This document shows, piece by piece, positions 29,601 to 59,535 of a stretch of DNA of 64,000 bases. This DNA is from Azolla caroliniana. Its lineage: Eukaryota; Plantae; Polypodiophyta. Location of the stretch: assembly GCA_043228905.1 (NCBI GenBank), contig JBHGNT010000022.1, forward strand, positions 6,696,001-6,760,000, given 5' to 3'. How positions within the stretch are numbered: the stretch's first letter is position 1; every line of letters begins with the position of its first letter. The translations under genes and the position numbers were made by a program. Below the pieces are notes generated by a model. That model worked only from the letters and a program-made list of their open reading frames with translations, did no database searches and was not told the DNA's origin.

Positions 29601-30958
29601 CCTCTCCATTATGGTTCGGTTCATCCTCTCGGCCAGTCCGTTTAGTTCCACCATCTTCGGCACGGTAAATTCGAGCCGGATTCCCTTCGAGCGGCAGTAC
29701 TCCTCGAACTGCCCCCGGTATTCTCCTCCGTTATCTGCTCGAACCGCCTTCAGCTTCTGGCCGGTTTCTCTTTCCACTCTCGCATGGAGCTCTTTGAAGA
29801 CGGATAACACCTGATCCTTCGTCTTCAATGGTGTGGCCCACAACTTCCGGCTGTGGTCATCTATGAATGTCACGAAATACTGCGATCCTGCATGTGACTT
29901 TGTGTCCACTTGACACACATCAGTATGCACCAACTTCAGTGGCACATTACGTCTCATCGGTGGCCTCGATCGGAAGGTGGTCCGGTTTTGTTTACCGGCC
30001 AGACAATCAATTCACTTTTCCAAGTGCACATTCTTCACTGGAATGAGGTTGTCGTCTGCAAGCCTCTTCATCCCCTTCTCGCTCATGTGACACAACCTCT
30101 TGTGCCACAGCTCACTGGCAGTGTCAGATGCCACGTTCACTTCTTCCGGACATAACTGGGCATTCATCAGGTACAACGTGTTTACCTTCCGGGCCTGAGC
30201 CACAATCAGGCTCCCTTTGCTGAACTTCATAACACCGTTCTGGATGCTACCCGTGTAGCCTTCATCATCTAGCTGACCGGCTGATATCAGGTTCAGACGA
30301 ACCTCTGGAACGTGTCGAACATCCTTCATCAGTAGCTTGCATCCGGTTGGTGTTGTCAACCACACGTCTCCTATGCCGACAATTCGGCATGTACCTTCAT
30401 TCCCCATCCAGACATAGCCGTGATCATCGGCTGAGTAGGATGAGAAGCATTTCCGGTCCAGGGTAAGGTGGAACGATGCTCCGGAGTCGACCACCCAGGT
30501 CATCTCGTCGCCTGCAAGGTTTAGCTCACTCTCCTCGGTGATGAGCATCAACTCTTCTTCACTTGCCGCGATTGCCGTTGTTCCCTTCCGGTCCGTTCCC
30601 CTCCGGTCTTTACCGTTCCGGTCTGGTGTCCGCTTCGAATCGGTACCGTCAGTTTCCTTGTCTTTTCGGAAGTTCCGACAGTTCTTCTGGAAGTGTCCCG
30701 GCTTGCCGCAATAGAAGCAAGTAGGCCTCCCCCTTGACTTTGACCGTGTCCTCGACTTTTCTCGGTTCTGAGGGCTACGGTTCCTTTGTCTTCCGCGTTC
30801 CAATTCGGTAAGGAGCGCTTTGGAGTCGGAGCTCGTATCCTTATCTTTCCGACGCGCCTCCTCATCTAGCAAGCTCGATTTCACTCTTGCTAGGGATAAC
30901 CGTTTCCCTTCCGGCCCGGCGTTGCCCAAAGTGACAACCAACGTCTCCCAGCTATCTA
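26695..30958 (-). mobile_element. Ty1/copia copy F: 3' LTR 26695-27399, PPT, pol, partial gag; 5' end deleted
   Basis: LTR termini TGTTAGGA...TCCTAACA; PPT reverse complement ACTCCCCCTTC at 27401. CFYCGKPGHFQKNC, VVDSGASFH, RADNGGEY, LNGLAERMN, QLDVKTA, LLYVDDMLI. Confidence 0.9.
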
Positions 30959-30959
30959 A

Positions 30960-31845
30960 GTTGATGATTTAGTCATCATCGGATCCGGACTCGATGAAAT
31001 CGGCCGAGTGAAGTCCCACTTGTTGGACGCATTTGAAATGAAGAACCTGGGGGACCTTCATTATTTTCTTGGGATGGAGGTGATCCGGCCCCTCGATGGC
31101 ATATTGCTCTCAGAAAGACACTATGTGCTGAATATACTGTACAAGTTCGGCATGACGAAATGCCGACCGATCTCCACACCCCTGGACTAGAACTTGAAGC
31201 TACGTCCCAACTCCGGCCCGACCTGTGATGAGAAATGGTTCCGACAAATTGTCGGAAGCCTTATATATTGACGATCTCCCGAACCGACATCAGTTATCCA
31301 GTCAGGGTGATCAACCAATTTATGCAGAAGCCGACCGTGGAGCACCTTCAATGCGCGCATCGACTATTGCGATATGTGAGCGGCACGAAGGACCGGGGAT
31401 TGTTATATTGACACAATATAGTTGGGAAGCTAGTCGGATATACGGATGCCGACTGGGCTAGTGATGCATCAGATCCTCTAGTAGTGCGGATGTTGCAAGG
31501 AGTAGCAAAAAGCAGCCAACAGTGGCTCTGTCGAGCACTGAGGCTGCATACCGGGGTGCTACCATTGGCACTTGTGAAGCCATCTCGCTTTTGCGACTGC
31601 TGCAAGACCTCCGGATCGAGGTGCCGAACCCGATCCTAGTTTATTGTGATAACGTAAGAAACACATAGCTCGCTAAGAACCTTGTATGCCATGCTCGGAC
31701 AAAGCACATAGAAGGGCATTATCACTTTGTTCGTGAGCAGGTCCTGCGCGGTGAAGTTGAAGTTCGGTATGTTCACACGGATCGGCAGGTTGCCGACATC
31801 TTCACCAAGCCGCTCGGATCGAACAAGTTGTAGCATTTTTCGGAG
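30960..31845 (+). mobile_element. Ty1/copia RT-RNase H remnant (likely the 3' part of copy D)
   Basis: VDDLVII, FEMKNLGDLHYFLG, GYTDADW, KKQPTVALSSTEA, TKHIE, ADIFTKPL, with stops and frameshifts. Confidence 0.8.
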
Positions 31846-31971
31846 AAGCGCCAAAATGATGAAGAGAGAGAGAAAAAAGATAGATAGATAGATAGATAGA
31901 TAGATTATATTATCGTCTTCGGAGGTCAAATATGACCTATGAGACCAAAAAATTACATTTCACGTGATACG

Positions 31972-32972: not shown

Positions 32973-34322
32973 TTAGTTGGGAAATGTGCTTGGGGACAAA
33001 TCCACTTCTTGCTCTCCATGATCATTTTCTTGAATGTCCTTATCCATTATAGAAATGTAGGTAGGTCCCCGATTCACATACTTCTTTAGGCACCATCCAT
33101 TCACACGTAGTTCATGAAGAGTCCCATCCATGTCCTTGAGTTGATAACTTTGAATGTCAAAGCAATCGTGTACCACAAAAGGTCCTTCCCAACGATTTAT
33201 CATCTTTTGTCCTTTTATATTGTCAAAACGATTGTCGTAGCGAAGTAGAAGAGATCCTTTTGAAAAAGTATATTTTCTTGACCTTTTATCATAATACTTC
33301 TTCCTCCTCCAAGCCTGTTGAATATAATGCTCTACTGCTTCCTCCCTTGAATATTGTAGAATATGGTTTTGTGACAACCTATCCATCTTGCAACATTCTT
33401 CGTCACGTAGAGATGATCTTAAGAGTTTATTGCTTCTAACTTGAAGTTCAATTGGAAATAAAGCTTCTTGTCCATATACTAAGAAGAAAGGTGTAAAACC
33501 TAGATGCCTTATATGATATGTGATAGGCCCATAGAGCATCATCAAGGAACTCATCCCATGTTCTTATTCTATCTGAGACAAGTTTTTGAAGATTTTTAAC
33601 CAAAATACCATTTACCTTTTCGATAATAAGGAGTAGAATACCTATGTTTAATCTTTAACCTTTCTAATAAGCAAGACAACACTTCGCCACGAAAACTTGG
33701 ACCGTGATTAGATACAATCTCTAGCGGTACACCGAATCTTGTACAAATATTCCGGTAGATGAATTGGGCCACATCCCTTGCTTAAATCGAGGATGTTGCT
33801 ATTGCTTCTACCCACTTAGTCATGTAATCAGTAGCTACCAATATGAATTCTTTACCGCTTTGGGTTCTTGGAAGGGGACCCACTGCATCGATTCCCCATT
33901 TTTCAAAGGGAGCAAAAACCACAATAGGATGCAAAGGGCCTGCTTGAAGCTGTCTTCTTCCTGCCTTCTGACAAGCATCACACGACTTGCACCATTCATG
34001 TATATCTTTGGGAATAGAAGGCCATGTAAAACCTATTAATAAAATTTTTCTCAACATGATATCATGAGAAAAATGCCCTCCACAAGCCTCCTCATGCATC
34101 TTTTGTAAGATCTCCACAATTTCCTCCTTAATAGGCACTCTTCATAAAACACCATCTTTGCCTTTATGGTAAGTCCTTATCCACCATTATATATTGGGAT
34201 GCTCTCACCACCAATCGTTTTCTTTGTGTAGAATTTAAACCTTTAGGAAAATCACCACCATCAAGAAACTCACATACCTCCTCAAGAGATGTCACATCTT
34301 TACACTCTTCCAAAATGCATAT
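32973..34322 (-). pseudogene. gypsy H integrase region (decayed)
   Basis: HEEACGGHF...FTWP..CDACQ zinc finger, FEKWGIDAVGPLP, ATDYMTKWVEA, TPFFLVYG, RWEGPF (GPY/F). Confidence 0.88.
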
Positions 34323-34473
34323 GGGTCGAAGCATGCTACGGTGTACCAACTTTTGGCCAAAAATTTAGTACTAAATCGAAGAAGAAAATAAACATTAAAA
34401 ATTGTAAATAAGTTTCCAAAAACAAAAAACAAATTCATTACGTCACACTCGAATGCACAAAGATATTGTACGT

Positions 34474-35250
34474 TGTCGAGATTTTACGCAAGTGCGTGTG
34501 GAAACGAGGCAGGACCGCGGGGGTCTCGAACCAAAGAGCAAGCGAGGGAGGAGAAAGGGAGAGAACCGGCTACGCAGGGCCGGGGATACACAGGGACGCG
34601 GCCCTTCAGCACGGTGAACGCGAACAGACACCGACACAGACAGATGCGAATGACTAAATGTGTGTATTAAGAAAAATGGCTAACACGACTACAACCCTCG
34701 ACGGGGCACAGGTTGGTTACAACCGAACAGGCCGGCGAATAGATGCCGATGCCTGTTCACTTCGACGCACAAAGGGGCTGCCGGAAGCACTCGGGCGTTC
34801 CTCGAAACAGCGCGAGCCTCCTCGGAACCCTGCACAGAAAGCTATGGAGCTCAAGAAGGAAGGAAACAGAGAGAGAGAAGCGTCCAGAAACGGTCCGACA
34901 GCACTTCGTCCTCTCCTTGCGAGATACCTGCAACAGCTCTTTCCTGCTCTTATATAGCCCGACGAGCAGGCCGTCCTGTCAGCTTTATTCCCTGTCCCTT
35001 TCGAACAGGGATCCGCTCCGTTCTTCACGCATCCGCGTAGTTACGCCGCCGACTCGTGCCGTCCCTTAGCTCGCGCGCGCGACCGAAAAGACTGTTCGCG
35101 CGGTCTTTGTCTCCACTTGTGTTAGGGCCCGTTCCTGCCGATTATCCTCCTAACTCGCTTCTTCGTACAACTTGGAGCTTGCGCGCGTGAAGAACCGGTT
35201 CCCACGCCTAGGTGCGCCGATCCCGCCTATGGACGGTTTTCTTCACGACA
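34474..35250 (-). mobile_element. Solo LTR of the Trp-primed gypsy family, inserted in the left subterminal region of the DNA transposon
   Basis: Minus strand begins TGTCGTGAAGAAAACCGTCCA and ends CTCGACA, homologous to LTR 58897-59535. ACGT TSD at 34470-34473 and 35251-35254. Confidence 0.88.
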
Positions 35251-35374
35251 ACGTCACACTCGAAATGTCCCTAGGCCATATTTAATACATTAATTGTTGC
35301 CCCAGTCTCCTAGGTAGAGTTGTACGAAAGCACACCTGGAGAAGGTATCCATTGTGACAGTTGGTCAGTCTCAG

Positions 35375-35410
<36 letters not shown>

Positions 35411-35453
35411 ATGGGTAGTCGAACGTGTCAATTGGTATGTCTCTCTCTCTCTC

Positions 35454-35493
<40 letters not shown>

Positions 35494-35540
35494 ATGGGTA
35501 GTCGAACGTGTCAATTGGTATGTCTCTCTCTCTCACTCAC

Positions 35541-35572
<32 letters not shown>
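35375..35572. repeat. (CT)n tracts interleaved with a duplicated ~33-bp unit
   Basis: ggtatgggtagtcgaacgtgtcaattggtatg at ~35408 and ~35491, between CT runs. Confidence 0.85.
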
Positions 35573-35574
<2 letters not shown>

Positions 35575-36179
35575 GTCTCGAAGTTGTCAGACAGACAATG
35601 GCAGAAAGTTAAAGAAAGACGACATATCTATTACAGGTCTATCTCTCTGTTTCTTTCTTTCACTCCACCTTCGATTCTTTCTGTTTCTTTCTTTCAAAGC
35701 TCTGTTTCTTTCTTTCTTTCTGTTTCTCTCTCTCACTCCACCTTCGATTCTCTGTTTCCCCGCGTAGCTGTTCTTGTGTTCCCCTCTGTGCCAGGTTCGA
35801 TCTCTGAACGCAGAGATTTTTGTTTCCCCTGCTCGTTGTATGTGTTGTTGATTTTCCTTCCTTGTGTATGCTCGTTTGTTTCCTTTGTCTATGCTCATTT
35901 GTCTCCTCTGCAGCAGCCTCGTTTGTCGAAATCAACACGGTCTGGTACCTCTGCAAGTTGTACAACCTCCAGGTATTCTCTGTGTTGCATGCCCAACTGG
36001 TATGTTTTCTTTTTCTGAATGTTTCCTGTCTGTCTGTTTTTTATTTGCATGTGTATGGTCATTTTTAGGGTTTGATTATTCATAGTCTATGTGTTGCATG
36101 CCCAACTGGTATGTTTTTGTTTTCTCTGTGTTTCTCTGTGTTTCTTTTAAAAATGTATGAAAATATTTTGATCGAGGTG

Positions 36180-36530
36180 GTTGTGTGTTAGACATGTTTG
36201 TACATGCAACGTAAATGGAGTTGGCTATGATGAGTTGCTATGTTTTCGTTTTGTTCTTGTTTCCTGTCCATCTGTTTTATTTTGTGTGAGTTTGACATGG
36301 ATGAGTGTTTTTCCGACTATTTTGGGTTTTTGTGTGTTTGACATGGCTTGTACATGCGATGTGATGGAGTTGGCTATGATGATTTACAATGTTTTCGTTT
36401 TCTTTGACTTTCCTATCCGTCTGTTTTTATTGTCTGTGTGTTTGACATGGATGAGTTTTTTTCCGACTATTTAGGGTTATTGTGTGTTTGACATGGTTTG
36501 TACATGCAATGAGATGATTTGCTATGTGTT
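36180..36530. repeat. Degenerate ~150-bp tandem repeat in the first cargo-gene intron
   Basis: gtgtgtt(t)gacatg...gtacatgc...gagttggctatgatg recurs at ~36185, ~36333 and ~36482. Confidence 0.7.
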
Positions 36531-38439
36531 GATGGTAATTGCTTGAGTTTTCTTCTAGTACATGCATATTCATTCCCTGAGAATTGTGTTGACTAGGACA
36601 ATGACGAGAAGGACACCCATAAAGAAGACATTGATGAAAGAGAAAGTGAAGACACTAGTGAAGGAAGGAAGAAGGACACCCATGAAAGAAAGCAAGAAGA
36701 CACCCACAAGAGAAAGGGTGATGAATTCATCAACACAGAGAAAGAAGATGTACCACTCCATCAGTCGAGACACACCTCTTGGATGGAATTATTTCCTTCG
36801 AGCACGACCTGACGTGTATCCAGAGCTGAGAGAGTGGTTGTTAAAAACCTGGGGGTCAGTACATCCCGACACAAGGCGAGGATTCCACATAAGTGGTTTG
36901 AAGAGGGAATACATGAATTTATTGAAGACGAGATACGAACCTGTTTATGATACAAATCAAATCACTAACAATGAGGTGGGTACTGTTTTTGCACGTGCTT
37001 TTGCATGTGAAGTTCAAGGTGGCATTGACGTAAATTGGGAAGATTTTAATCGGCACCGGTCAGAACATTACAAAGGGTCCTCCAGTACCAACACTGGCTT
37101 GAAGTCATCTGGAACCTCTCATGTGGATATTCTAGCTATAACACCTATCCACCAAGTTCTAGAGGCAAAGGTACGGGCCACAATGACTGAAAAGCATGAA
37201 CAGATGATGGCCGGTTGCATAGCTTCTATGAGCTCAAGAATACAAACACTACTTGCTGATTTGGAAGCAGTTAAATCAGCTGAGATACAGGCAGAAAAGA
37301 AATTTTCGTCAATAAAAACTACATATGAATGGATTGCATCGACAATCCAAAATTCAGAAAGTGAGGTGTTGAAAGAGGAGTTGAAGAAAGAGCTAAACAA
37401 TATGGGCACTCAATTAGGTTCACAGATGAGAGACCTTGATACTTGCAGGAATGCACATGAAGAAATAGATAATAAGTTGTCAGCCTTAAAGTTGCATTCT
37501 GAGAACCTTGCATGCTTGATGCAGGATTTAAAACAAAATGGTTTTGATACTTTGTGTCCATCTGTAATTGAGCACCCAAGTGGTATAGAAAGTACCATTA
37601 TTAGTATAGCTATATCACGGTATTGGCTTTAAAAGTTATTTATTTCTACTTCTTTGGTATAAATAAGTGAGCAACTAATATATTATAACTTGTGTTTGCA
37701 ATCTTCCAGGTGTATATTTTGTGGCCTCGGATTCAAGCTGGAGGCTATGGATGTTGTGATTACACCATGCTTGCACACATATCATGTGCTATGTGCTAAG
37801 TATCATTTTGAGAAAGAGAATACATGTATGGACTGTAAAACTACAATTGCGGCTGAGTGGTACTATGCTTGGGGTTTAAAAGTACACCCGTACGGTATGT
37901 GGCTCTACTATTCTATTGTTTGTATTATATGATGTCAATTAACATTTGGACTAGAACTAGTGTATGCCACAATTCATACTTCAAATTTAGTGTAATCTCT
38001 AACAACTATTATGTGGAACCCTAATTATGTGGGTTAGTATTGGCAGTACTCTTAATATATAATTGGTATGTGTAGTTGAAGGGATATTTTCCACAATTAG
38101 TAGTACTAAAAGGGAACCAGGTACAACATCGTCCAATCTATATTGCAACTTGCCTAGTATTAGTTTAGTAAACACTATACTTATAGTACACTGTTGACTG
38201 TTAAGATTGTTTGTGTAACTTGGGAATTAGTACTAGTAATGTAATTTGGGAACAAGGTGTATAGTAAATTGTTGAATAATAGTACAATTATTGTAATTTG
38301 GAAATGAGGTGTGTCAAACACATATCACGTTTAGTACTAATACTGTTCAAGATTAATACTGTTGGTGTAATTAGTACAAGTTATGTAACTAGGTGTGTAG
38401 AAGACATATCATGTTTAGTATTACTTGTGTGCAAAATAC

Positions 38440-39660
38440 CAATCTACATTTGTTGGATTAGTACTTAGTAAGTACTACATGGTTCATGATTAGTACTAGT
38501 TCTGTACTTTGTGAACTAAGTTACTAGTACATTGCTCATGATTAATACTAGTTTTGTAATTTGGGAACTGAGTAGTACTTTGTTCCTTATTAGTACTAGT
38601 TTTGTACCTTATTAGTACTAGATCAGTAATCTAGAAAATAAGTGAGTAGTACATTTTGTAGGATTAGTACTAATTGTGTAATTTGACTAAGTCAGTGGTA
38701 CATTGTTGAGTAGTACATTGTTCAGGATTAGTACTAATTGTGTAATTTGACTAAGTCAGTGGTACATTGTTGAGTAGTACATTGTTCAGGATTAGTACTA
38801 ATTGTGTAATTTGACTAAGTCAGTGGTACATTGTTCGGGATTAGTACTCCTTGTGTAATTTGCTAACTAAGTGAGTAGTATATTGTGCATGATTAGTACT
38901 ACTTGTGTAAATTGGGAACTAAGTGAGCATTACATTGTTCGGGATTAGTACTCCTTGTGTAATTTGGTAACTAAGTGAGTAGTATATTGTGCATGATTAG
39001 TATTACTTGTGTAAATTGGGAACTAAGTGAGCAGTACATTGTTCGGGATTAGTACTCCTTGTGTAATTTGCTAACTAAGTGAATAGTATATTGTGCATGA
39101 TTAGTACTACTTGTGTAAATTGGGAACTAAGTGAGCATTACATTGTTCGGGATTAGTACTCCTTGTGTAATTTGCTAACTAAGTGAGTAGTATATTGTGC
39201 ATGATTAGTACTACTTGTGTAAATTGGGAACTAAGTGAGCATTACGTTGTTCGGGATTAGTACTCCTTGTGTAATTTGGTAACTAAGTGAGTAGTATATT
39301 GTGCATGATTAGTACTACTTGTGTAAATTGGGAACTAAGTGAGCAGTACATTGTTCGGGATTAGTACTAGTTTAGTGATTTAGGAAATAAGTGAGTAGTA
39401 CATTGTTCAAGATTAGTACTACTTATTAATTTGACTAAGTCAGTGGTACATTTTTCGGGATTAGTACTTGTGTAATTTGGTAACTAAGTGAGTAGTATAT
39501 TGTGCATGATTAGTACTACTTGTGTATATTGTGCATGATTAGTACTAATCGTGTAAATTGGGAACTAAGTGAGCAGTACAGTGTTCCTTATTAGTACTAG
39601 TTCAGTAATTTAGGAACTATGTGAGTAGTACATTGTTCATGACTGGTACATTGTGTAAAA
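38440..39660. repeat. 52-bp AGTACT-rich tandem array with 104-bp higher-order unit (cargo-gene intron)
   Basis: c(a/g)ttgttcgggattagtact starts at 38829, 38933, 39037, 39141, 39245 and 39349, alternating with tattgtgcatgattagtact; degenerate flanks. Confidence 0.9.
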
Positions 39661-42645
39661 TGGGAAGCAGCTCTTGTGACCTACATTATATATTTTAGAT
39701 GATGGTACTAACATTCAAGGTTTTTTTGTTTCTTGCAATGAATGTTGTAGTGTCAAGCAACTCCACGCCAGGGAAGGTAATGGAACAACCAGCCCCTGTG
39801 CCTAAACCCTCAATATCTGCTGCACATTCCAAGGTTTAGGGACCATCATTACCAATAACCTATGATTTTTATGATGAGGATGAATGTATGAGAAGGGCCA
39901 TTGGAGCAGTGGAACATATGCTTCTACAAACAAATTCCCCAAGCTCCGGTCAACATCAAGAAATAGAGCCCACTAAGAAGAGAAATGCAGTTTCTTTACA
40001 AATAGAGCCCAGTAAGAAGAGAAATGCTGCAAGAATGTTGTATGGAAACAGCAAGAAAGGCAAAGTTGAATGCAATGGTGAGTCATATAAGTTCTCACCT
40101 GTCTGGAGCATTGTCAACCTAATCCATTGTCTAATACCATGTACTTGTGTTAGTAGCTGATGATGAAATGATATTTGGTGACGGAGATACGAGTCCAAAA
40201 CCTGATCATGAAGACGAATTTATCACACTCCCAGGTACACGTCAAAAGCCAGACTTTGAAAACAATGATTTAGCTCATAACAACCCTATTTTTGTTGTTA
40301 TTATAGATCATAACAACACTGTTGAGCACCTAGATGTTGTGGAGAAGATGACCGAGCCCACCACTTGCAATGGGGTATCTACGACTGTATAGTATGACGA
40401 TGTAACATTAGGTAAAAATGTGGCCCTAAACCCTATGTTCATTGTTTGCAAACTTTTGAGTATGTGAGTTCATACCAATATTCTTTGGAATCCCATTAAT
40501 TAGGTTTACAAGAGCAGTCTGATTCCCAACTGCAATCAAATGAATCGGGAACTTCATGGAGCACAAGTGCAGAATCAGATTCCCATCAGAGTCAGAATCA
40601 AATTAACCTTTGCAAGGAGGCAGACTCTGGAAGCACATCTTCCACACATGAGGATTGTGAGAAAAACGAAGCATTCATATGTGAAGAGCAGCTGGCATGT
40701 ACAAACAACACTATGTCTAAAGAAGCCTATGAGTGTGGAAAGAATATGGCAAGTACTGAAGAGAAGATTGAAGCCCATGAAGAGTGTGGAAAGAATATGG
40801 CAAGTACTGAAGAGAAGACTGATTGTACTGATAATGTGGCAAGTGCTGAAGAGAAGACTGATTGTACTGATAATGTGCTAGTACTATCTAAAGATTCCCA
40901 TGAGGATCATGGAAAGAACATTGCTAGTAATGAAGAGGAGCTTGATTGTACTAAGAATGTGCTAGTAGTGTCTTGTGAAGCCCATGAGGATCGTGGAAAG
41001 AACATTGCTTTCCCTGAAGATAAGCCTGATTGTACAGAATCCCATGAGGAGTGTAGAGCGAACAACGTTACTAATGAAGGTGGGCATGATTGTACTCAGA
41101 GCGAACAACGTTGTCTTAAGAATGAGGTGACATCCATCGTACAAGAGGAGTTGACCATGACTACTGCCACGGTCCACATACAGGAGTCTAATAAGAACGA
41201 GTGTATAGGCATCGGTGATGATGATAGGGCAATAAAGATCGCTAGGAGTACAAGCATTCAGGAGATGAGTGATAATTTGTCTATCGACAACACCTTTGTG
41301 GATTTGTGTACAAGCATTGCAGTTGCAGAAAACATTGTTGCTCTCTCAAGCTTGCCACCAGTACAAGGTGCCCGCGCATCCACGCCTGTCTCTGATGCCT
41401 CTGATGATGAAGTGCCACTTAGTCAGGTCATACCTAAAGGCTTTAAGATAAAGAAAAATGTAAAATCAGAAAAATCTGGCACCAACAACAAGCGCATTAC
41501 AAGATCGGCCAAGTTACCCTCTAGTGCCTGATTGTCTTTCGATTGTACTTGAACTTTAGTTGTTAGTGATGTCTGAAATTGAACTATTTGGATACCAAAA
41601 TACTGTTTCAATTGCCAATGTAAAAAATCCAGTTCATGAATTTGAAATAGTTATACCAGTGTGAAATCAAGTTCATGTTTAAGGATTGCTTCTATATTTT
41701 GCTCATCAACATATATCAAAAACAATGGGAATATACTTTTTGATCTAAGTATTCTTATTTTACAACGTTTTGTTTCTTTTTTGAGATCATCTCCTAATCC
41801 TCGCAAAGTCTTTCAGTCTATTGTAGATAAAATGCTTGAAAGTCTTCTTAGCTTGCTAGGAAAATTTAGGTTTTTAGGTGTTGATGATGAGAAACAGAAA
41901 ATATCGGGTATCGGGTGTTATTGAAGATATACTGAAGTATAAACTGTTTCATCAATCCCATTTGGACGGTAACCAGAATGTGTGCAAATTGTTGAAGCAA
42001 TGTGGGCCATATTTTGATGATATCATCCCAAAGGATGAATCATCCACTAACAGTAGTAAGGAAACACTTACCTTTTTGAGCTATCACAAATTATTGTTTC
42101 AGAAGTTGGATTATTTTGTTAAGGAAAGGAAGGTCTGTACTTTAAAATCCATAGCCTGGATATTCAGGACTTATATACAAGAAGTAAAAACTCAGATGGC
42201 TTCACAGGACATATCATGAAACAAAAAAGGATTCTGAGAAAATAATTTTCATTGTTGTCTTCACAGAATTCATCGCCCCCTTTGAAAAATGAACTTACAG
42301 TAGAAAATCTTACAATATTAAAGTCTTTAATGAATTCAACTAACAATCTTCTCTTGGTAGCAAAAGAAGAGCAGATTTATGTGCCAACAGAGGACACACC
42401 AACTCTGCAAAACTCCTATGCTCAAATAACATCAGGAAACATGAGCAATATCGGCAATGAAGAAATCCAAGTCCTGTTGACAACAACTAATATATTATGA
42501 AAGATAAGTACAAGTGGTTGAGAGGCATAAACCCTTTGGAAGAAAGACGAAATATATCAATTCATTTGTCAATCATCAAAATTAATAGTGAACTCCAAGT
42601 GGATGTTTTTCAGTTTTCTAGTACAATGTATTGATAGGGTGACTT

Positions 42646-45600
42646 TCAAGCATTAAATAGAGAGACCTCCCCTAATATGTGCTCATGAACCTCTTGGGGG
42701 ACCTTGTAGACAGTGTTGTATCCCTTAACCTTGTGCTTTGCTTGAGTCATATTGAATTTGATCGCAAGAATGGCATCAACGTAGATTATTGCGATGGGTG
42801 CTTCTTTTAGTAATGCATATGTGTTCTTGCACTGCGGCAACTTTGCATAATAGTTTCCATACACGACAGACTCACCAACGTTGAAATTGTTGCCCCAACC
42901 ATCCCTCACCACTTCTTTCAATAATGTCTTTCCTTGCTTGCACACCACAATGTAGTAGTCTTCTAAATCTTCATTCTGAGAATATTTGAGCACTGCAAAA
43001 TGATCTCCAACTTCCAATAAAACTGCCAAGTCTTGATTTTGGTTGTAGTATACAATATCGTTTGAATGCACATCCTCTTCAATATCATCTTGTCGTTCAG
43101 GCTCAAGCTTCTGCAGCTTCCAGGGCTCCACGATTGATAGGTTGATGCATTTATCCCAAGCTTCATCTAGACACATGGAACAAAAGCATGATAAACTACG
43201 GAGTAACAATTGGGTTGTGTCCTTGCGGCTAAACCCTAACACACAATGGGTGCTGTGTGTGCCTTTCACGGTTTTACAACCATATGATTTAGTTCTATCG
43301 ACCTCATCAGCGCGAACTTCAACAAACAATCTGTTCTTACCATCATTTGACATCTTCCATGTTAGCCACTGCACAACATCATGTGCATTTTGTAACTTAG
43401 CGCCATTATTATCCAACTGCTCACTTGTAAGGGCACGTTTGATCACAGCCCCCGCGCCATCATGCTCTCCTTTTCCATGTCCAGACCCGAAGTAATTCCA
43501 TTGCATACGAATATTGAATAAGGAGAAATACCTGCTTTGGTGAGTACAAGATGAGTACAATACTATGAGTACAACATGAGTAAATACTGATTTAGTACAA
43601 TTCTCTTAAGGACGGACAATACTATGAGTACAAGATGAGTACTTTATATCCTCCTGTAAACACAACATAGTACAGATACAACACACAACATAGTACAATG
43701 TGTCTATGGAGAACCCTTCACATGGATTAAAACATAATTAGTACAATTCTCTTAAGGACGGACAATACTATAAGTACAAGATGAGTACTTTACATCCTTT
43801 TGTAAACACAACATAGTACAAAACCAACACACAACATAGTACAATGTGTCTATGGAGAACCCTTCACATGGATTAATCGATACTTAGTACAATTCTCTTA
43901 AGGACGGACAATACTATGAGTACAAGATGAGTACTTTACATCCTCCTGTAAACACAACATAGTACAAATACAACACACAACATAGTACAATGTGTCTATG
44001 GAGAACCCTTCACATGGATTAAAACATAATTAGTACAATTCTCTTAAGGACGGACAATACTATAAGTACAAGATGAGTACTTTACATCCTTTTGTAAACA
44101 CAACATAGTACAAAACCAACACACAACATAGTACAATGTGTCTATGGAGAACCCTTCACATGGATTAATCGATACTTAGTACAATTCTCTTAAGGACGGA
44201 CAATACTATGAGTACAAGATGAGTACTTTACATCCTTTTGTAAACACAACATAGTACAGAACCAACACACAACATAGTACAATGTGTATATGGAGAACCC
44301 TTCACATGGATTAAAACATAATTAGTACAATTCTCTTAAGGACGGACAATACTCTAAGTACAAGATGAGTACTTTACATCCTTTTGTAAACACAACATAG
44401 TACAATGTGTCTATGGAGAACACTTCACATGGATAAAAAGATCATTAGTACAATTCTCTTAAGGACGGACAATACTATGAGTACAAGATGAGTACTTTAA
44501 ATCCTTCTGTAAACACAACATAGTACAATGTGTCTATGGAGAGCACTTCACATGGATTAAAAGTTACTTAGTACAACATAATACAAACAAAATTAGTATG
44601 CATGCATCCATTCACAAGTGCAAGATTCAAATAGTTAGAAACATAATTAGTATGCATCGATGTGACTAGTATTGTTTGTTAATAGTTACAAACATAATTA
44701 GTATGCATCCACTAACACAAGATTTACTTCCTTACACATTGCATGATAAGTATTAAACATATGGATTAAAAATTACCTGGCGATAAAGTAGAACGATCGC
44801 GTCGCCTTAAACTGCGAGGCAGCACCATTAGACCAAACCCAATGACGGTTAAAGGTTAACCCTAGAGAAAATAAATCTGCATGGTGAAGCTTAAAACAAT
44901 GTTGAACAAATAGTGTATCATGCTTTTTATCATCTGAAATGTAAAATATTGATTTCTTATGTAACTCACCGTCTTGCCTCCAATAGCAAATATGTACAAG
45001 TATTGTACATTGATCATTGTACCAATGCATTGATTGAACCTCATTTTGAACTTTAAATGTATAGTTTTCTGCAAAATCAATAACGGATACAATGACACCC
45101 GTTGGTAAGTTATTAATACATTCCTTGAACTGTGAATTTTGCCAATAACTCCGGAAGTTATGTGGAATAAACTCCCCAAGTTGTTTCTTAAATTCTGAGA
45201 CAAGGGTAGCAGCACATGTCTCCTTATATACTTCCTTGATACGCTTAGTTACAACTCCCTTGCCAATATTTTCAGTCACATACTCCAAATATTTCCATTT
45301 CACGATATGACTATTTCCCATATCAAGCTCCTGCCTACAAAATAATGGTAGCGGACAAACCTTACATGTTCTTAATAGACATGTACGACGATGCCACTCA
45401 CATGATGGTTCTTTTTCACAAACACAAGACCTCCATAGCTCAGAAACGGATGCATAAGTCATGTTTCATGCATTACACCTATTATCCTCCCCATTTGGTC
45501 TACAAATCTCACAAGTGCAGACACATAATTCCCCATGTATACCCTTAGAATCAGTACGCATTGCATTCACTGCTAGCCTTAACATGTCCATCTTCACATG

Positions 45601-46424
45601 GTACACACAACAACATGTATTCCTCTCATTTAATTTTCTAACATAAAATGGTTTCAAACCTTGGAACTTGCGGAATCCGACAGTCAAGCTTGGATGTTGG
45701 TCTTTAAAGTTCATGTATAATTCAGCCTACATCAACCAATATATATAGCAAACATTAATATACACTTGGTCAAAACACAAAGTTATGGAATGTGAATTGA
45801 TATAAAAAAATGGAATACCTCTGTCATCTCCAAGAAGTGTCTAGGGTGAATCTGGTACTTACCCTGACTTATTCGTTGTCTACACACGTCCTTCTTATTT
45901 GGTGAGACACGTGTATTTTTGGCCCAAAATGAATCCACTTTCTCAATAATCTCTTGAGATAAGGCATCACATCGTTGTCTACGTCCCGACCCCAGCCACT
46001 TGAATTTGCTTGAGTGTATATTTCGGCGATGTTTCCTCAAGTTCCTTCTTTGAATACCCAGGGCTAAGGCAACTTTAGTATCACTATATTTTTTTTCTCT
46101 CGCACCGTTCACAACCATGTGTAGGGCTGCCCTCTTTGCAGTAAGTTTGTCTAAGCTCTCTACACCTTTCACTAAGTCTAGGGATGACTTCATAGACTCC
46201 ACAATCTCTTCTGAAACACATTGGTCCCTAAATTTTATTCTCTCCATGTCTTCATTCAAACTTTGATGGTGTAACACTCTACAAATAATATCCCTACGAT
46301 CCTCTTCACTAAATCTCTTCGTTATTTCTACCAAATAACGAACTATGTGAAGAACCACTCGTCTCTTAGTCCTTTCAGATATGCATGAGTTACTTGACAA
46401 CTCACTCTCGTTAGGAACCCCCAT
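42646..46424 (-). pseudogene. Sola2-like DDD transposase, 3 exons, ~813 aa, inactivated
   Basis: Exons 46424-45819, 45726-44777 and 43531-42646 join in phase. Motifs: CCCVYH and Cys clusters, IDFAENY, EVQSMHW, ISDDKKHD, WSNGAASQFK (normally WSDG), YFGSGHGKGEHDGAGAVIKR, SCFCSMC. In-frame TGA at 45463-45465. Confidence 0.85.
43593..44580. repeat. 146-bp tandem array filling most of transposase intron 2
   Basis: tagtacaa(ttctcttaaggacggac) starts at 43593, 43739, 43885, 44031, 44177 and 44323 (period 146), then 44446 and 44569 (period 123); A/B alternation. Confidence 0.93.
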
Positions 46425-46479
46425 TCGGTCACTAGATTTATCCACAAAAATTAAGTGTCTTGCGAAAGTAGTTAATGTT

Positions 46480-47240
46480 ATATAGACTCAAGCAAGAAAA
46501 CACAATCAAATGTTTTTAAATGTGGCCTGCAAAGTGAGAAATATTTTGTTTCAAACATTAGAATTACATATCAAATATGACATGTCAATTCTAAAAATTT
46601 AGTACTTAAATATGAAGAAATGAAACATTTTAGTACTGAAAATAAAAAAAATGGATGGAAGGAACCTCCAATGGTGGAGGGAGCGTGGATATATAGACTC
46701 AACCAAGAAAACACAATCAAATGTTTTTAAATGTGGCCTGCAAAGTGAGAAATATTTTGTTTCAAACATTAGAATTACATATCAAATATGGCAAATGTCA
46801 ATTCTAAAAATTTAGTACTGAAATATGAAGAAATGAAACATTTTAGTACTGAAAATAAAAAAATGGATGGAAGGAACCTCCAATGGTGGAGGGAGCGTGG
46901 ATATATAGACTCAACCAAGAAAACACAATCAAATGTTTTTAAATGTGGCCTGCAAAGTGAGAAATATTTTGTTTCAAACATTAGAATTACATATCAAATA
47001 TGGCAAATGTCAATTCTAAAAATTTAGTACTGAAATATGAAGAAATGAAACATTTTAGTACTGAAAATAAAAAAATGGATGGAAGGAACCTCCAATGGTG
47101 GAGGGAGCGTTGGATATGCCGCCTCGATTTGGTGGAAGGAACCTCCAATGGTGGAGGGAGCGTGGATATACAGCCTCGATTTGGTGGAAGGAACCTCCAA
47201 TGGTGGAGGGAGTGTTGGATATGCCGCCTCGATTTGGTGT
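46480..47240. repeat. ~212-bp tandem repeat (x3) followed by 52-53-bp subrepeats, upstream of the transposase
   Basis: atatagactcaa at 46480, 46691 and 46903; ggaaggaacctccaatggtggagggag at 47081, 47134 and 47186. Confidence 0.9.
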
Positions 47241-47787
47241 AAAAAGCCCCAAATCACCACGACATCAACTGCAATCGGTGGAAGTACGAAAGTCGTTGTC
47301 GAAGAAGTGACTATTGGCTGCTACCTAAACCCTCAGAACAGTCTCTGTACCTCAACCGAAACCTAACAAAAACAGAAACCCTAAAAAAATCAGAAATCCT
47401 CAACTCAAACTCTCCAACCAGACATGGATGTCTGAGATTTAGATTGAAGGAAAATAAAAAACGTGACATGGATGTCTGTGATGAAAAGCTCAGAGAGATA
47501 GAGGAAGAACAGTATGAGGGGAATCGCCAAAACGACGTGAGGGGAAGCGCCAAAATCGACGTGAGGGGAAAATAGCCCCCAAAATGGAAGAACATCTCCT
47601 CACGTGTTCCCCCCACTCCTTCTACAGTAAATGACACTTGTACTACAGTCACCCCACTCTCCAAAATCGATTTTCTTTTTCTCTAATTTTTTTTCTGAAT
47701 TATTCAGTACTAACAGTATTGAAAGTACTGACAATTTTTGTGGCCAAAAACAGTACTTTTTTGGTACACCGTAGCTTGCTTCGACCC

Positions 47788-47927
47788 ATATTGTCTCAAG
47801 TTTTAATTTCTTTAGTTGATCTTGAGCAAGTGCATCAGCCTCTTTATTGTCTAAATGACTTACATGTTTCAATTGAACTTTATGGAAACACTTAATTAAA
47901 GTTAGTGCCTCCTTAAAAAACATACAT
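47788..47927 (-). pseudogene. 140-bp island of gypsy H pol (end of the additional RNase H)
   Basis: MFFKEALTLIKCFHKVQLKHVSHLDNKEADALA (RNase HI H...N..AD.LA motif), in frame with both neighbouring H fragments. Confidence 0.85.
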
Positions 47928-47983
47928 TATCGTGAAGGATTCTGGCTATAGTGTGAAACCGCGGTGGAATAGGGCAAGACGGT

Positions 47984-48078: not shown

Positions 48079-51000
48079 AGAACACAATTTCAAAATTATA
48101 TCAAAACTCTATGTATACACTGTGCTAAGTAGCACTATTTATACAAGTCCTCTTGGGACTGACAGAAGTACCATGTACTTCAATGCTCACACGAGCATTT
48201 GACACTTACTACGAGACTATAGCTACCTAGTAGTCTATCCTATACTAGGCTTCCGATTGGACTTCCGGTTACGGATTGCACCCGGGCTCCACTGCTTGCT
48301 GGTTCGGTTGCTCACCGTCATACCGATCCGTTTCGCCCGATCCGTCTCGCTTACCGGCTCCGGCTTATTCAGCCGATCCGGCTCCGGTTGAGCTTGCCGC
48401 TCAACACTCCCCCTCAAGCTCAACCTGAGGTGGGGTGGTAGTGTCGACACCTCTGTGGCAGTCGGTTCTTCCAACCGACTTCTCCTGGCGTCACTCCGCC
48501 TTGCTCGCGCTCCTCGTCCGGTCCGGTCCCGTTTGCCGCGACCCCTTTGGTTCTGCGCGCCTCGACCCTCTCGGTCGGCATGTCTGCTCAATAGGCCCAT
48601 CTCAACACTCACGTTGCTGTGACTCTGGCCCTTGCCGATCCGTCGGTTCTCCCACGATGGCATCGACTTCCACTGTGTCCGTGTCCCCTTGGCCTTCAGT
48701 CGATCCGACTCATCCGGATCCATCTGTTGATCCGAGTTAGCTGTCTCTGACTCGTTCCAGCTCTTGTCCGAATCGGTACACTCCGATTCGACTTCCGGCT
48801 TTAGGCCTCTCACCACATCGGACCACTTCTGAGTCTTGGCCTTCTCCATGCTTCCCTCGGCTTCTTTAGCCGGTGAACCGAAATCGAATTCTTCATTCGA
48901 CTCTGTATCATGGTCAGTACCGTCGTGATGACCTCCGCACAACATGCACTTCTCTTCCTGAGTGCACAACTCTTCTTCACAGCCGTTTGCTCCGACCTGT
49001 TCGAATGTGTCGACTTCCTTCGTCGACTCGGCTTCCTTCATCTTCGTGTCTGCTCTTCTTCCGGCTCTCCTCTTACCGACGGGTTCAACAGTTTTTTGGC
49101 CTTTGCCCGTTTCGATAGAGCTCGTTTCGATAGACTTTGCCCTTGCTTCTCCCCCTCAAGTGCGGCACGTCGAGATGCTAAATACCAAGCATGTCGGTAA
49201 AGTGCTGCAACTTGTCCGATCTGAGCGGCTTGGTGAAGATGTTGGCAACTTGCCGATCCGTATGAACATACCGTAGGTCAACCTCACCGCTCAGGACCTG
49301 CTCACGCACGAAGTGGTAATGCACCTCGATGTGCTTTGTGCGAGCATGGAACACAGGGTTCCTGGCGAGCTGCAGGCTGCTCATGTTATCGCAGTAAATC
49401 GGGATCGGGGTCTGTACCTCGATTCGCAAGTCTCGCAGTAGTCGCCGAAGCCAGATGGCTTCACAAGTGGCAACGATAGCGGCCCGGTACTCAGCCTTAG
49501 TGCTTGACAAAGCCACTGTGGGCTGCTTCTTGCTGCTCCACGCAACGGCCGCGCTACCTATGGAGAACATGTATCCGGAAGTGGAGTGGCGATCAGACGC
49601 ATCGCCGGCCCAGTCAGCATCTGTGTAACCAACAAGCTCTTCGGGTATACCTCGCCGGTATAGCAGTCCCCGGTCCTTAGTGCCGCTAACATACCGTAAT
49701 ATTCGTTGCGCGCACTGAAGGTGCTCCACGATCGGCTTCTGCATGAACTGACTTACCATGCCGATCGGATAGCTGATGTCGGGTCGGGTGATGGTTAAGT
49801 AGATCAGGCTTCCGACAACCTGTCGGAACCGTTTCTCATTGCAGGCCGGTCCGGAGTTGGGACGGAGCTTCTGGTTCCAGTCCAGGGGTGTGGAGACAGG
49901 TCGGCAATCCGTCATGCCGAACTTGTACAACATATTGAACACGTAATGTCGTTGTGAGAGCAATATGTCGTCCGGGGTCCGGATCACATCGATCCCAAGA
50001 AAATAATGAAGGTTCCCCAGGTCCTTCATTTCGAATGCGTCCGACAACTGGGACTTGACGCGGTTGATTTCGGGAAGACCCGGTCCGGTGATGACTAAAT
50101 CATCCACATACAAGAGTATACATACCGGACCGTCAGAGCCTTGCTGGATGAACAACGAAGAGTTCGACTTAGAGACAGCAAACCCCAGCTTACGCAACCG
50201 GTGCGTGATCTTCGCATTCCAAGCTCGGGGGGCTTGCTTCAAGCCGTAAAGCGACTTCTTCAGTTGGCATACCGCCGACTTGTTCATCTCCGAGTGAAAT
50301 CCGGGGCGCTGAGTCATAAAGACTTCTTCTTCAAGCTCTCCTTGAAGGAAGGCGTTCTTCACATCCATCTGGTGAAGATGCCACCCCCTTGCCGCAGCAA
50401 CCGCCAGTACCACACGAACCGTCGTCATCTTCACCACAGGTGCGAAGGTCTCGTCGTAGTCGATTCCGTGGGTTTGCGCGTATCCCTTCGCCACTAACCG
50501 GGCTTTGTACCGGTTAACAGAACCGTCGGCGTTGTACTTGACCTTGTACACCCACTTGCATCGGATCGGTTTACAGTGACGGGGAGCATCAACTAGGTCC
50601 CAAGTTTCGTTGGCATCGAGTGCCCGCATTTCTTCGTCCATAGCGGCACGCCAATTTGCGTCCTTTGATGCTTCTACGTAGCTCTCCGGCTCACGCACTT
50701 TTGTCACCTTAGTCATGTATGCATAATGATGCGCCATGTATTCATTGTACCCGTACCGTATGACGGGATCCTTCTGGCGGGTTGATCGGCGCAACGCACT
50801 GTCACCTGATTTGAGGCCCTTCTTGGCCAGTTCGGTCTTCGTTGCCGAAGATCCACCTTTCTCCTTTCCGGAGTCGGATACGCACCGATCCGACTCATCG
50901 TTGCCGGTTTCGAATTCCGGCATCTTCCTCTTCCCCTTCTCTTTGCGCGTGAACCGTTTCCTCGGTTCCTTGCGCGGGGAGAGCACGGCAGAGTCTCCAC

Positions 51001-58823: not shown

Positions 58824-59535
58824 AGGCTGGACCGGTTTTCTCCGTCCCAACTCAATTTGGCGCATGCCGGAGGATGCGCGGTTAGATGGGGGCGGATGTC
58901 GTGAAGAAAACCGTCCACAAGCGGAATCGGTGCACCGGGGCGTAGGAACCGGCTCTTCATGCCCGTACGCCTTATATTGTACATAAGGGAGAATTAGGTA
59001 CATAGGAGATCCTAGGTAGGTAGATTTAGTGGGTAGGAAGTAAAGGGGAAACGGCTCCTTCCTTGCCTATAAAAGGAGGGAGACGAGAAGGGGGATGGGA
59101 TCGCGGAATCAGAGAGGACGAAGTGTTGTCGGATTGCGTGCCGAAGGCTTCTCTCTCTTCCATACTCTGTAGTTCCTTTCTGTGCAGGTTTCGGGAGGCT
59201 CGCGCTGCTCTGAGGAATGCCCGAGTGCTTCCGGAAGCACCTCCATCCTACTCCTTTCTTTCTGTGCGTTTACGAACAGGCGTCGGCATCTATTCGCCGG
59301 CCTGTTCGGTTGTAACGAACTTCGTGTCTTGTTGTTAGTCTTTGTTAATAGATACATACATTCGTGTCTCTCTATGTCGCTGTCCCACTCGCGTCTTTGT
59401 GTCGAAGGGCCGTGTCCTTGTGAATCTACGGTCGCACCTAGTGGGTCTCTTCCCTTCTCCTTTCTCTCTTGCTCTTCGGTACAAGACCCCCGAGGTCCCG
59501 CCTCGTTCCACGCATCCGCGAGGAATACCTCGACA

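What the first reader, a model, noticed from the sequence alone, without database searches (positions are those of the whole stretch)
34323..47787. Two-gene DNA transposon: Sola2-like transposase plus a convergent RING-H2 (putative E3 ligase) cargo gene
Seen: within one TIR/TSD-defined element, a minus-strand transposase faces a plus-strand gene of at least six exons whose five splice junctions are all phase-compatible. The predicted protein has a basic N-terminus with repeated RRTP/KKTP motifs, a W/F-rich globular segment (YEPVYD..NNEVGTVFARAFACE....VNWEDF), a coiled coil, a canonical C3H2C3 RING-H2 and a long acidic repeat tail. Established: RING-H2 domains usually act as E3 ubiquitin ligases; some plant DNA transposons encode accessory proteins (VANC anti-silencing factors in VANDAL Mutators, ULP1 proteases in MULEs, Myb/SANT in Harbinger). 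To my knowledge Sola elements were described as transposase-only. Inference: this may be an undescribed transposon-encoded ubiquitin ligase module, for example for counter-silencing or transposase turnover. The only lesions seen are two TAGs, each one C>T step from CAG, so the gene may have been intact until recently.
Basis: partly seen in the sequence, partly recalled or inferred. Interest (0 to 1): 0.82.

Follow-up and report, generated by a model that had tools for sequence, protein, structure and literature searches.

The report
Plant Sola2 transposon carrying RING gene
This is one dead copy of a multi-copy jumping gene, likely from a fern, whose family has long carried and conserved a second gene for a RING-finger protein (a likely ubiquitin ligase) that is predicted to bind the element's own repeated DNA palindrome and would help it escape silencing by the host.

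Summary
Confirmed. 34323-47787 is a Sola2-type transposon (27-bp TIR, 4-bp TSD) with an 813-aa transposase facing a 937-aa gene: novel folded N-domain, coiled coil, RING-H2, acidic tail. The genome holds at least 119 cargo copies; 20 of 27 modelled copies (picked for similarity) have it intact. Pack-type capture is refuted. Between subfamilies dN/dS is 0.30-0.38 (exon 1) and 0.07-0.23 (RING). A second family (transposase 42% identical) carries an intact homolog. 15 of 25 metagenome relatives with enough flank carry it convergently, against 0 of 30 upstream flanks. RING and transposase co-diverge (Mantel 0.89). PolyA reads from a related plant show both genes transcribed, with two cargo introns spliced. 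Each fern family keeps its own palindrome in introns and ends, as VANDAL/VANC does. Best reading: a self-targeted anti-silencing E3 ligase; ligase activity, DNA binding and role are untested. Sola elements with second genes are known (Fanzor, ParB-methylase); I found no report of this one. The scan noted a similar element earlier in this genome (e1-10618503).

The parts
34323..47787 (.). Whole Sola2-type DNA transposon copy (family 1, young subfamily A); dead in both genes
34319..34322 (.). Left 4-bp target-site duplication ATAT
47788..47791 (.). Right 4-bp target-site duplication ATAT
34323..34349 (+). Left 27-bp TIR, starts GGG
47761..47787 (-). Right 27-bp TIR
34474..35250 (.). Foreign 777-bp TG...CA insertion with a 4-bp duplication, solo-LTR-like; not part of the family
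35913..35972 (+). Candidate non-coding 5' exon of the cargo gene (donor conserved in 4 of 4 copies checked; 5' edge uncertain; not seen in RNA)
36597..37619 (+). Cargo coding exon 1 (ATG at 36601): basic N-terminus, N-domain, coiled coil
36751..37074 (+). Novel globular N-domain (aa 51-158, NNE..FARAF..E...V.W motif); no Pfam or fold match; candidate DNA-binding domain (inferred)
37147..37536 (+). Coiled coil (aa 183-312)
37710..37894 (+). Cargo coding exon 2 with the C3H2C3 RING-H2 (37711-37836)
37895..39750 (+). Large cargo intron with a 52-bp tandem array; 28 AGTACT palindrome cores
39751..40077 (+). Cargo coding exon 3; premature TAG at 39837-39839 in this copy
40157..40411 (+). Cargo coding exon 4 (acceptor corrected by 3 nt); premature TAG at 40390-40392 in this copy
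40504..41531 (+). Cargo coding exon 5: acidic repeat tail ending in an acidic-PL plus basic/TRS motif shared with homologs
41626..42527 (.). Segment between the two 3' ends, present in young subfamilies and absent in 3 of 3 older copies; no Pfam match
42646..43531 (-). Transposase exon 3 (HGKGEHDG motif)
43532..44776 (-). Large transposase intron with a 146-bp tandem array; 7 AGTACT cores
44777..45726 (-). Transposase exon 2 (Cys cluster, DFAEN, SDG); TGA at 45466-45468 and D502N in this copy
45819..46424 (-). Transposase exon 1 (ATG at 46424)
   Evidence: the intron after it is spliced in a relative
46425..47760 (.). Transposase-side subterminal region with 212-bp and 52-bp repeats; 9 AGTACT cores

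Best explanation
This is a dead copy of a two-gene Sola2 DNA transposon family whose second gene is inherited and selected with the transposase across seed-free-plant lineages and likely encodes a self-targeted ubiquitin ligase, predicted to bind the family's own palindrome arrays and to relieve host silencing of the element. Shown: element structure, multi-copy intact gene, purifying selection, co-divergence with the transposase, transcription and splicing in a relative, family-specific palindromes in introns and ends. Inferred: the N-domain with the basic N-terminus reads the palindrome; the coiled coil makes a dimer that suits a palindrome; the RING recruits an E2 and ubiquitinates a silencing protein or histone on the element, so the transposase gene stays expressible. 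My odds by step: real selected accessory gene 0.95; RING is an active E3 0.65; the protein binds the arrays 0.5; the outcome is anti-silencing 0.4.
For: Multi-copy: 119 cargo-exon and 151 transposase matches, both lower bounds; 80 of 119 cargo hits face one of the 150 listed transposase hits. Intact: 20 of 27 modelled copies; 5 of 5 family-2 copies, 599 aa. Selection: dN/dS between subfamily consensuses A-O, A-C, A-D and C-D is 0.30-0.38 for exon 1 and 0.07-0.23 for the RING, against 0.64-0.85 in neutral simulation and 0.75-0.83 for exon-1 decay within old subfamilies. Depth: family 2 has a transposase 42% identical and a cargo 27% identical over coiled coil plus RING, E 2e-11. Adiantum nelumboides proteins match. 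15 of 25 metagenome loci carry the gene convergently, 0 on the same strand, 0 of 30 upstream. Mantel rho 0.89, n=12, and L176 encloses both genes in TIRs with a 4-bp TSD. RNA. Motifs: AGTACTAA 25-46 times per element against about 1 expected in all 8 family-1 elements tested; family 2 has a different palindrome, 83 and 90 times in its two large introns. The large cargo introns of subfamily A and of C or D do not align, yet all keep the core, 28, 9 and 12 times. VANC precedent: motifs in introns and ends, spread by tandem repeats, with tandem peptide repeats in the protein (PMC5735166 passages).
Against: Nothing here shows DNA binding, ubiquitin transfer or an effect on silencing. The N-domain is charge-neutral (15 K+R, 14 D+E). 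The transposase changes between families along with the motif, so it could be the binder. Motif enrichment is weak in most of the more distant cargo-positive loci (top 8-mer 2-12 copies). The RING scores under Pfam cut-offs and lacks the helix Trp and the Pro after Cys7 of many RING-H2 ligases (alignments; their role in E2 binding is recalled), although RNF4, its best PDB hit, also lacks the Trp. 10 of 25 metagenome loci and 7 of 20 divergent G000 transposase loci showed no cargo within the flank held. The RNA comes from a relative: the expressed cargo is of the P0076 type, whose best G000 match is 67%, and only 2 of 96 reads on the window stretch were 99% or more alike.
Confidence: 0.4

Rival explanations
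1. Transposition cofactor or brake: the second protein works with the transposase, as CACTA TnpA or Harbinger Myb/SANT proteins do. It binds the arrays or the transposase to build the transpososome, or ubiquitinates the transposase to limit activity.
For: Tight co-divergence with the transposase. The palindrome also sits next to both TIRs. TnpA-TnpD complexes are modelled in PMC13547354 (passages).
Against: Most motif copies lie in introns kilobases from the ends, the VANC pattern, not a subterminal one. Related transposases in a basal clade showed no cargo, though their flanks are short.
Confidence: 0.3
2. The transposase binds the arrays; the RING protein does not bind DNA but acts in trans as a ligase or scaffold against a host protein such as a silencing, repair or cell-cycle factor.
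For: Neutral N-domain; weak arrays in distant loci that still carry the RING gene. A bioRxiv abstract in the listing (10.64898/2026.08.24.746577) says a Mutator transposase activates its own copies. NIF-phosphatase-like ORFs beside the gene in family 2, L118 and L119 point to action on proteins.
Against: The largest array lies inside the cargo gene's own intron in both G000 families, and the cargo has a strongly basic N-terminus (18 K+R, 4 D+E).
Confidence: 0.22
3. Pack-type capture of a host RING gene that drifts neutrally, or a host gene that merely sits beside the transposon.
For: The cargo evolves faster than the transposase (dN/dS 0.3-0.4 against 0.12-0.18 in deep comparisons). One basal copy, L105, showed no TIR or transposase in 23 kb. 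The copy expressed in organism A could be domesticated.
Against: Purifying selection, in-frame indels, intact copies in two families, co-divergence at 32-46% transposase identity. Searches with a distant homolog scored only family-1 copies (top candidates only).
Confidence: 0.03

Closest known systems
Sola2 DNA transposons (Repbase group; alignment in PMC3627910 Additional file 10, part 1 of 2 read)
   Same: Transposase motifs in the same order: Cys cluster, DFAENY..Q.E.QS.HW..Q, SD...H, SDG.A.Q(F/Y)K, HGK...DG.G...KR; TIRs; 4-bp TSD.
   Different: 12-13 kb, intron-bearing, with a second convergent RING gene and palindrome arrays. TSDs are not limited to AT-rich sites (GGGG, CTCT, AGCA seen), unlike the Dictyostelium Sola2 elements of that paper.
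Sola2-Fanzor1 elements (PMC3627910) and Sola1-1_Ec32 with a ParB-methyltransferase gene (PMC12477816)
   Same: Large Sola elements with a second gene; in Sola1-1_Ec32 it is on the strand opposite to the transposase.
   Different: The second gene is unrelated: a nuclease or a methyltransferase there, N-domain/coiled coil/RING-H2/acidic tail here.
VANDAL Mutator elements and VANC anti-silencing proteins (PMC5735166, passages read)
   Same: Accessory gene; family-specific short motif in introns and terminal regions, spread by tandem repeats; tandem peptide repeats in the protein.
   Different: Different superfamily. No Pfam match to VANC domains or any other family. A RING finger is present. Binding and demethylation are proven for VANC and untested here.
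CACTA TnpA and Harbinger Myb/SANT accessory proteins (TnpA from PMC13547354 passages; Harbinger recalled)
   Same: Stable two-gene cut-and-paste element with a likely DNA-binding partner protein.
   Different: No Myb/SANT or TnpA domain match here, and a RING-H2 is present.
RING domains in other mobile elements: Burro retrotransposons (PMC6431247 passage) and RAG1-like transposases (recalled; PMC1131882 seen as listing only)
   Same: A transposon-encoded RING finger.
   Different: There the RING is part of a polyprotein or transposase; here it is in a separate, convergent gene.

Membership tests
Sola2 transposon | TIRs and 4-bp TSD | tested here: met
   Window copy plus 7 of 7 family-1 copies with both ends found (10 fetched), 5 of 5 family-2 copies, and L176; the 4-bp TSD as a Sola2 feature is from PMC3627910
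Sola2 transposon | Sola2-type catalytic motifs (DF.EN, SDG, HGK..DG) | tested here: met
   By eye against the Sola2 alignment; conserved at 90% or more in alignment A4 or intact copies; the second Asp is mutated in the window copy
Sola2 transposon | Termini starting 5'-GRG (recalled from the original description, which was not held) | tested here: met
   GGG ends in family 1, family 2 and L176; the rule itself is recalled
Sola2 transposon | Clusters with Repbase Sola2 rather than Sola1 or Sola3 in a tree | not tested
   No reference Sola sequences were in the tree; Pfam has no matching model
RING-H2 E3 ligase | Eight Zn ligands in C3H2C3 spacing | tested here: met
   All eight kept in consensuses A, B, O, C, D and in family 2; Pfam E 3.7e-5 but under the gathering score
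RING-H2 E3 ligase | E2-binding hydrophobic surface (helix Trp, Pro after Cys7) | tested here: inconclusive
   Hydrophobic residue after Cys1 present; Trp and Pro absent; RNF4 also lacks the Trp; the importance of these residues is recalled
RING-H2 E3 ligase | E2-dependent ubiquitin transfer | not testable with these tools
   Needs an in vitro assay
VANC-like anti-silencing system | Family-specific short motif enriched in introns and ends through tandem repeats | tested here: met
   Both G000 families and L116, L118, L119; weak in most distant loci
VANC-like anti-silencing system | Homology to VANC proteins | tested here: inconclusive
   No Pfam hit above cut-off for exon 1; no direct comparison with a VANC sequence was run
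VANC-like anti-silencing system | Protein binds the motif and removes silencing marks | not testable with these tools
   Needs EMSA or ChIP and methylome data
Pack-type captured host fragment | Few copies, neutral decay, recent host donor | tested here: not met

The most novel reading that the evidence does not exclude
Sola2 transposons of seed-free land plants have carried since before the moss-fern split a sequence-programmed ubiquitin ligase: a new DNA-binding fold fused to a coiled coil and RING that finds its own family's palindrome arrays and ubiquitinates chromatin or silencing proteins there, helped in some families by a pseudophosphatase. This would be an anti-silencing system that evolved independently of VANC and the first with a built-in enzyme.
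Probability: 0.35. Interest if true: 0.9.

Novelty: new variant of a known kind. Interest (0 to 1): 0.74.

Why it matters
How DNA transposons survive plant silencing is known in detail for VANDAL/VANC, and how VANC removes silencing is described as an open question in the passages I read. Here an unrelated superfamily shows the same DNA pattern, and its accessory protein carries a recognisable enzyme domain, so the mechanism can be tested directly: E2 assay, motif binding, substrate capture. Two young families with different motifs in one genome give a ready swap experiment. The N-domain is an uncharacterised fold and, if it reads short motifs, a possible tool for targeting chromatin. For annotation, over a hundred such 'RING genes' per fern genome are transposon genes.

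Tried and rejected
Protein searches with cargo exon 1 or alignment A1 among longer proteins found nothing (weak evidence). The ESM Atlas gave no usable hit for the N-domain and only generic RING clusters under 0.9 for P0071. Fold searches: the exon-1 model hit only coiled coils; the N-domain model had no match in PDB by Foldseek, in BFVD, or by VIA-wide (best Z 3.0); no PDB sequence match. This shows neither a new fold nor a function. My recalled lead that the N-domain is a plant-mobile-domain or Transposase_32 relative got no Pfam support. No RNA holder was listed for the window stretch. The junctions at 40077/40157 and 40411/40504 were not shown by any joint. No TIR pair was found in 12 of 13 cargo-positive metagenome loci. 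One first-round RING hit (L176, upstream, E 0.01) lacks the Zn ligands and was taken as false. The family-2 row of the NIF alignment was out of frame; the NIF calls rest on Pfam. The first family-2 gene model lacked an exon and was corrected. Searches for further Sola2 families in G000 were saturated by family 2, so other families may exist. No complex prediction was available, so dimer formation has no verdict. The original Sola paper was not held, and Repbase was not available. Paper searches that found no description of this gene.
Full report
1. Observation. The element runs from 34323 to 47787, with 27-bp TIRs starting GGG and the TSD ATAT. The minus-strand gene has three GT-AG exons for 813 aa. 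Exon 2 of the plus gene holds a C3H2C3 RING (Pfam E 3.7e-5, under cut-off). The element interrupts a decayed Ty3/gypsy-like pol remnant (integrase Zn domain).

2. The family. The TIR pattern matches 124 places, the control 0. Cargo exon 1 gave 119 matches and the transposase core 151, both lower bounds. 80 of the 119 face one of the 150 listed transposase hits within 35 kb. Of 10 copies fetched with flanks, 7 had both ends in view and all 7 had their own 4-bp TSD. Of 27 copies modelled, chosen mostly for high similarity and so biased to young ones, 20 have an intact 924-950 aa cargo frame with GT-AG introns, 17 of these have intact transposase exons 2-3, and 11 were verified whole in both genes. 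Both TAGs of the window copy are CAG there. Length differences between young subfamilies A and B keep the frame. Among 20 loci picked by more divergent transposase hits, 13 had cargo within 10 kb and 7 did not. Trees of cargo exon 1 (36 copies) and transposase exon 2 (33 copies) show the same subfamilies.

3. Selection. NG86 dN/dS between subfamily consensuses A-O, A-C, A-D and C-D: exon 1 0.30-0.38 (upper 95% bound 0.56 at most), RING 0.07-0.23, transposase exons 0.12-0.29. The shallow A-B pair is not significant for exon 1 (0.42, 0.15-1.17), nor is the basic N-terminus in any pair. Neutral simulation gives 0.64-0.85; copies against their consensus in old subfamilies C and D give 0.75-0.83 for exon 1, with stops. 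The gene was selected while the element was copying itself.

4. Depth. A second Sola2 family in G000 (at least 58 transposase and 150 cargo matches) has a transposase 42% identical, related TIRs, 4-bp TSDs in 5 of 5 copies and an intact convergent 599-aa gene of the same layout in 5 of 5, 27% identical over coiled coil and RING. It also has an ORF with a NIF/FCP1-like phosphatase domain and a degenerate catalytic motif. phmmer found 35 relatives of exon 1; of 10 looked up, 5 are Adiantum nelumboides proteins and 5 are unnamed. Named transposase relatives come from Klebsormidium, Ceratodon and Calypogeia. The host is therefore likely a fern. In 80 metagenome loci, profiles built without them hit 14 loci on the opposite strand downstream of the transposase at E 0.02 or better, three pairs of them near-duplicates, plus one false upstream hit. 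After adding those hits to the profiles, which makes their scores circular, 15 of 25 loci with 3 kb or more downstream were positive, none on the same strand and 0 of 30 upstream. Most of these copies carry stops; the ORFs in L125, L131 and L132 are open. These transposases are 32-46% identical to the two G000 families. RING-region and transposase identities correlate (Mantel rho 0.89, p 1e-4, 12 elements, near-duplicates L143, L169, L190 dropped), and L176 has both genes inside TIRs with a 4-bp TSD; 12 other loci gave no TIR pair. A basal clade showed no cargo, but only 3 of its loci had 3 kb downstream. The hosts of the metagenome loci are not named; a bryophyte origin is inferred from their place near Ceratodon in the tree.

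5. RNA. No listed holder is on record as RNA. In three stranded polyA runs of organism A (one study, about 12% read), 96 reads lay on 35800-38150, all in the direction expected for cargo-sense RNA. 23 reads leave the stretch at 37709 with sequence that encodes the end of exon 1 of the P0076-type homolog, so intron 1 is spliced. On copy L051, 380 reads lay: transposase region on one strand, cargo region almost wholly on the other. Transposase intron 1 is skipped in 14 reads (GT..AG); the RING exon joins the next exon in 5 reads, with 19 further loose ends. This is a relative's gene: its best G000 match is 67%, and only 2 of 96 reads were 99% or more alike. Expression of this copy or of the young family is not shown.

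6. Anatomy. AlphaFold2 gives a disordered basic N-terminus, a compact domain at aa 51-158 (pLDDT 84, pTM 0.80 alone) and long helices at aa 183-312. The RING's best PDB sequence hits are RNF4, synoviolin and Arkadia, at E 0.003-0.015. The acidic tail ends in an acidic-PL and basic/TRS motif, seen in whole or part in 8 of 8 C-termini compared by eye. After finding e1-10618503 suggested a VANC parallel, I counted motifs. AGTACT occurs 28 times in the large cargo intron, 7 in the large transposase intron, 9 in the transposase-side end, once near the left end and 3 times in exons (all in exon 5). AGTACTAA tops the list in all 8 family-1 elements tested, including this copy. Family 2 uses TAGCTA, 83 and 90 times in its two large introns; family 1 has 2. 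Subfamily A's intron does not align with those of C or D, yet all keep the core. L116, L118 and L119 have motifs of their own; enrichment is weak in most distant loci.

7. How it likely works. Shown: a co-inherited, selected, spliced accessory gene and family-specific palindrome arrays. Inferred: a coiled-coil dimer binds the palindrome through the N-terminal half, and the RING ubiquitinates something on the element's chromatin, relieving silencing of that family only (0.4). Rivals: transposition cofactor or transposase brake (0.3); trans-acting ligase while the transposase binds the arrays (0.22); neutral capture (0.03). The data cannot tell which protein reads the motif, because both change between the families.

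8. Known and new. Sola2 membership rests on TSD length, termini and motif order, not on a tree with reference sequences. Sola elements with other second genes are published. The plant table of PMC9033089 lists only Physcomitrella Sola1 and Capsicum. Eight paper searches turned up no description of this gene. What I saw of papers: passages of PMC3627910 plus two supplements (file S5, not relevant; file S10, part 1 of 2) and a supplement search; passages of PMC9033089, PMC3845634, PMC13547354, PMC12477816, PMC5735166 and PMC6431247; listings only for the rest. The original Sola paper, Repbase entries and unseen supplements could hold an annotation of this ORF. The scan itself noted a similar element on another piece of this genome, probably family 2; that is not independent support.

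9. Verdict. A real feature; a new variant of a known kind (accessory gene of a DNA transposon); interest 0.74.

Noticed in passing
L071:7427-8602 (minus), L118:2767-3972, L119:5322-6104: Family 2 and two metagenome relatives have a further ORF with a NIF/FCP1-like phosphatase domain lacking the DxDxT motif, just downstream of the RING gene; a separate gene or an alternative last exon. None seen in family 1.
   Followed up: partly
window 34474-35250: 777-bp TG...CA solo-LTR-like insertion with a 4-bp duplication; a 70% relative lies at about 58897-59539, others in L057, L090, L093, L102.
   Followed up: partly
window 39960-40010; L037, L039, L049: Older copies seem to have an extra intron of about 69 nt inside coding exon 3; young subfamilies have a duplicated peptide there, which suggests intron loss during the family's life.
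   Followed up: partly
window 41626-42527: Segment of about 900 bp gained by young subfamilies between the two 3' ends, with a 113-aa ORF without Pfam match.
   Followed up: partly
window 32973-34322 and 47788-47930: The element sits inside a decayed Ty3/gypsy-like pol remnant (integrase Zn-binding domain, E 5.5e-13).
   Followed up: partly
window 30957-31849 and 49189-50110: Two inverted copies of a repeat of about 900 bp, 76-84% alike, flank the region; probably independent LTR-type insertions.
   Followed up: no
G000:C19:16656781-16691170: Two family-1 copies with equal scores lie in mirror orientation about 15 kb apart; a local inverted duplication or an assembly artefact.
   Followed up: no
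G000:C7:10909254-10913584: A family-2 cargo hit lies within about 2 kb of a family-1 copy's left end, so the two families may neighbour or nest here.
   Followed up: no
P0016 (Klebsormidium): An annotated 1180-aa protein joins leucine-rich repeats to a Sola2-type transposase; a real fusion or a merged gene model.
   Followed up: no
runs X6-X8; P0076 cluster: In organism A one uniform cargo variant dominates the reads; it may be one active subfamily or a domesticated copy.
   Followed up: partly
L105 (G000:C6:17553746-17554729): Basal cargo copy with no TIR or transposase found in 23 kb; it carries stops, so probably a relic.
   Followed up: partly
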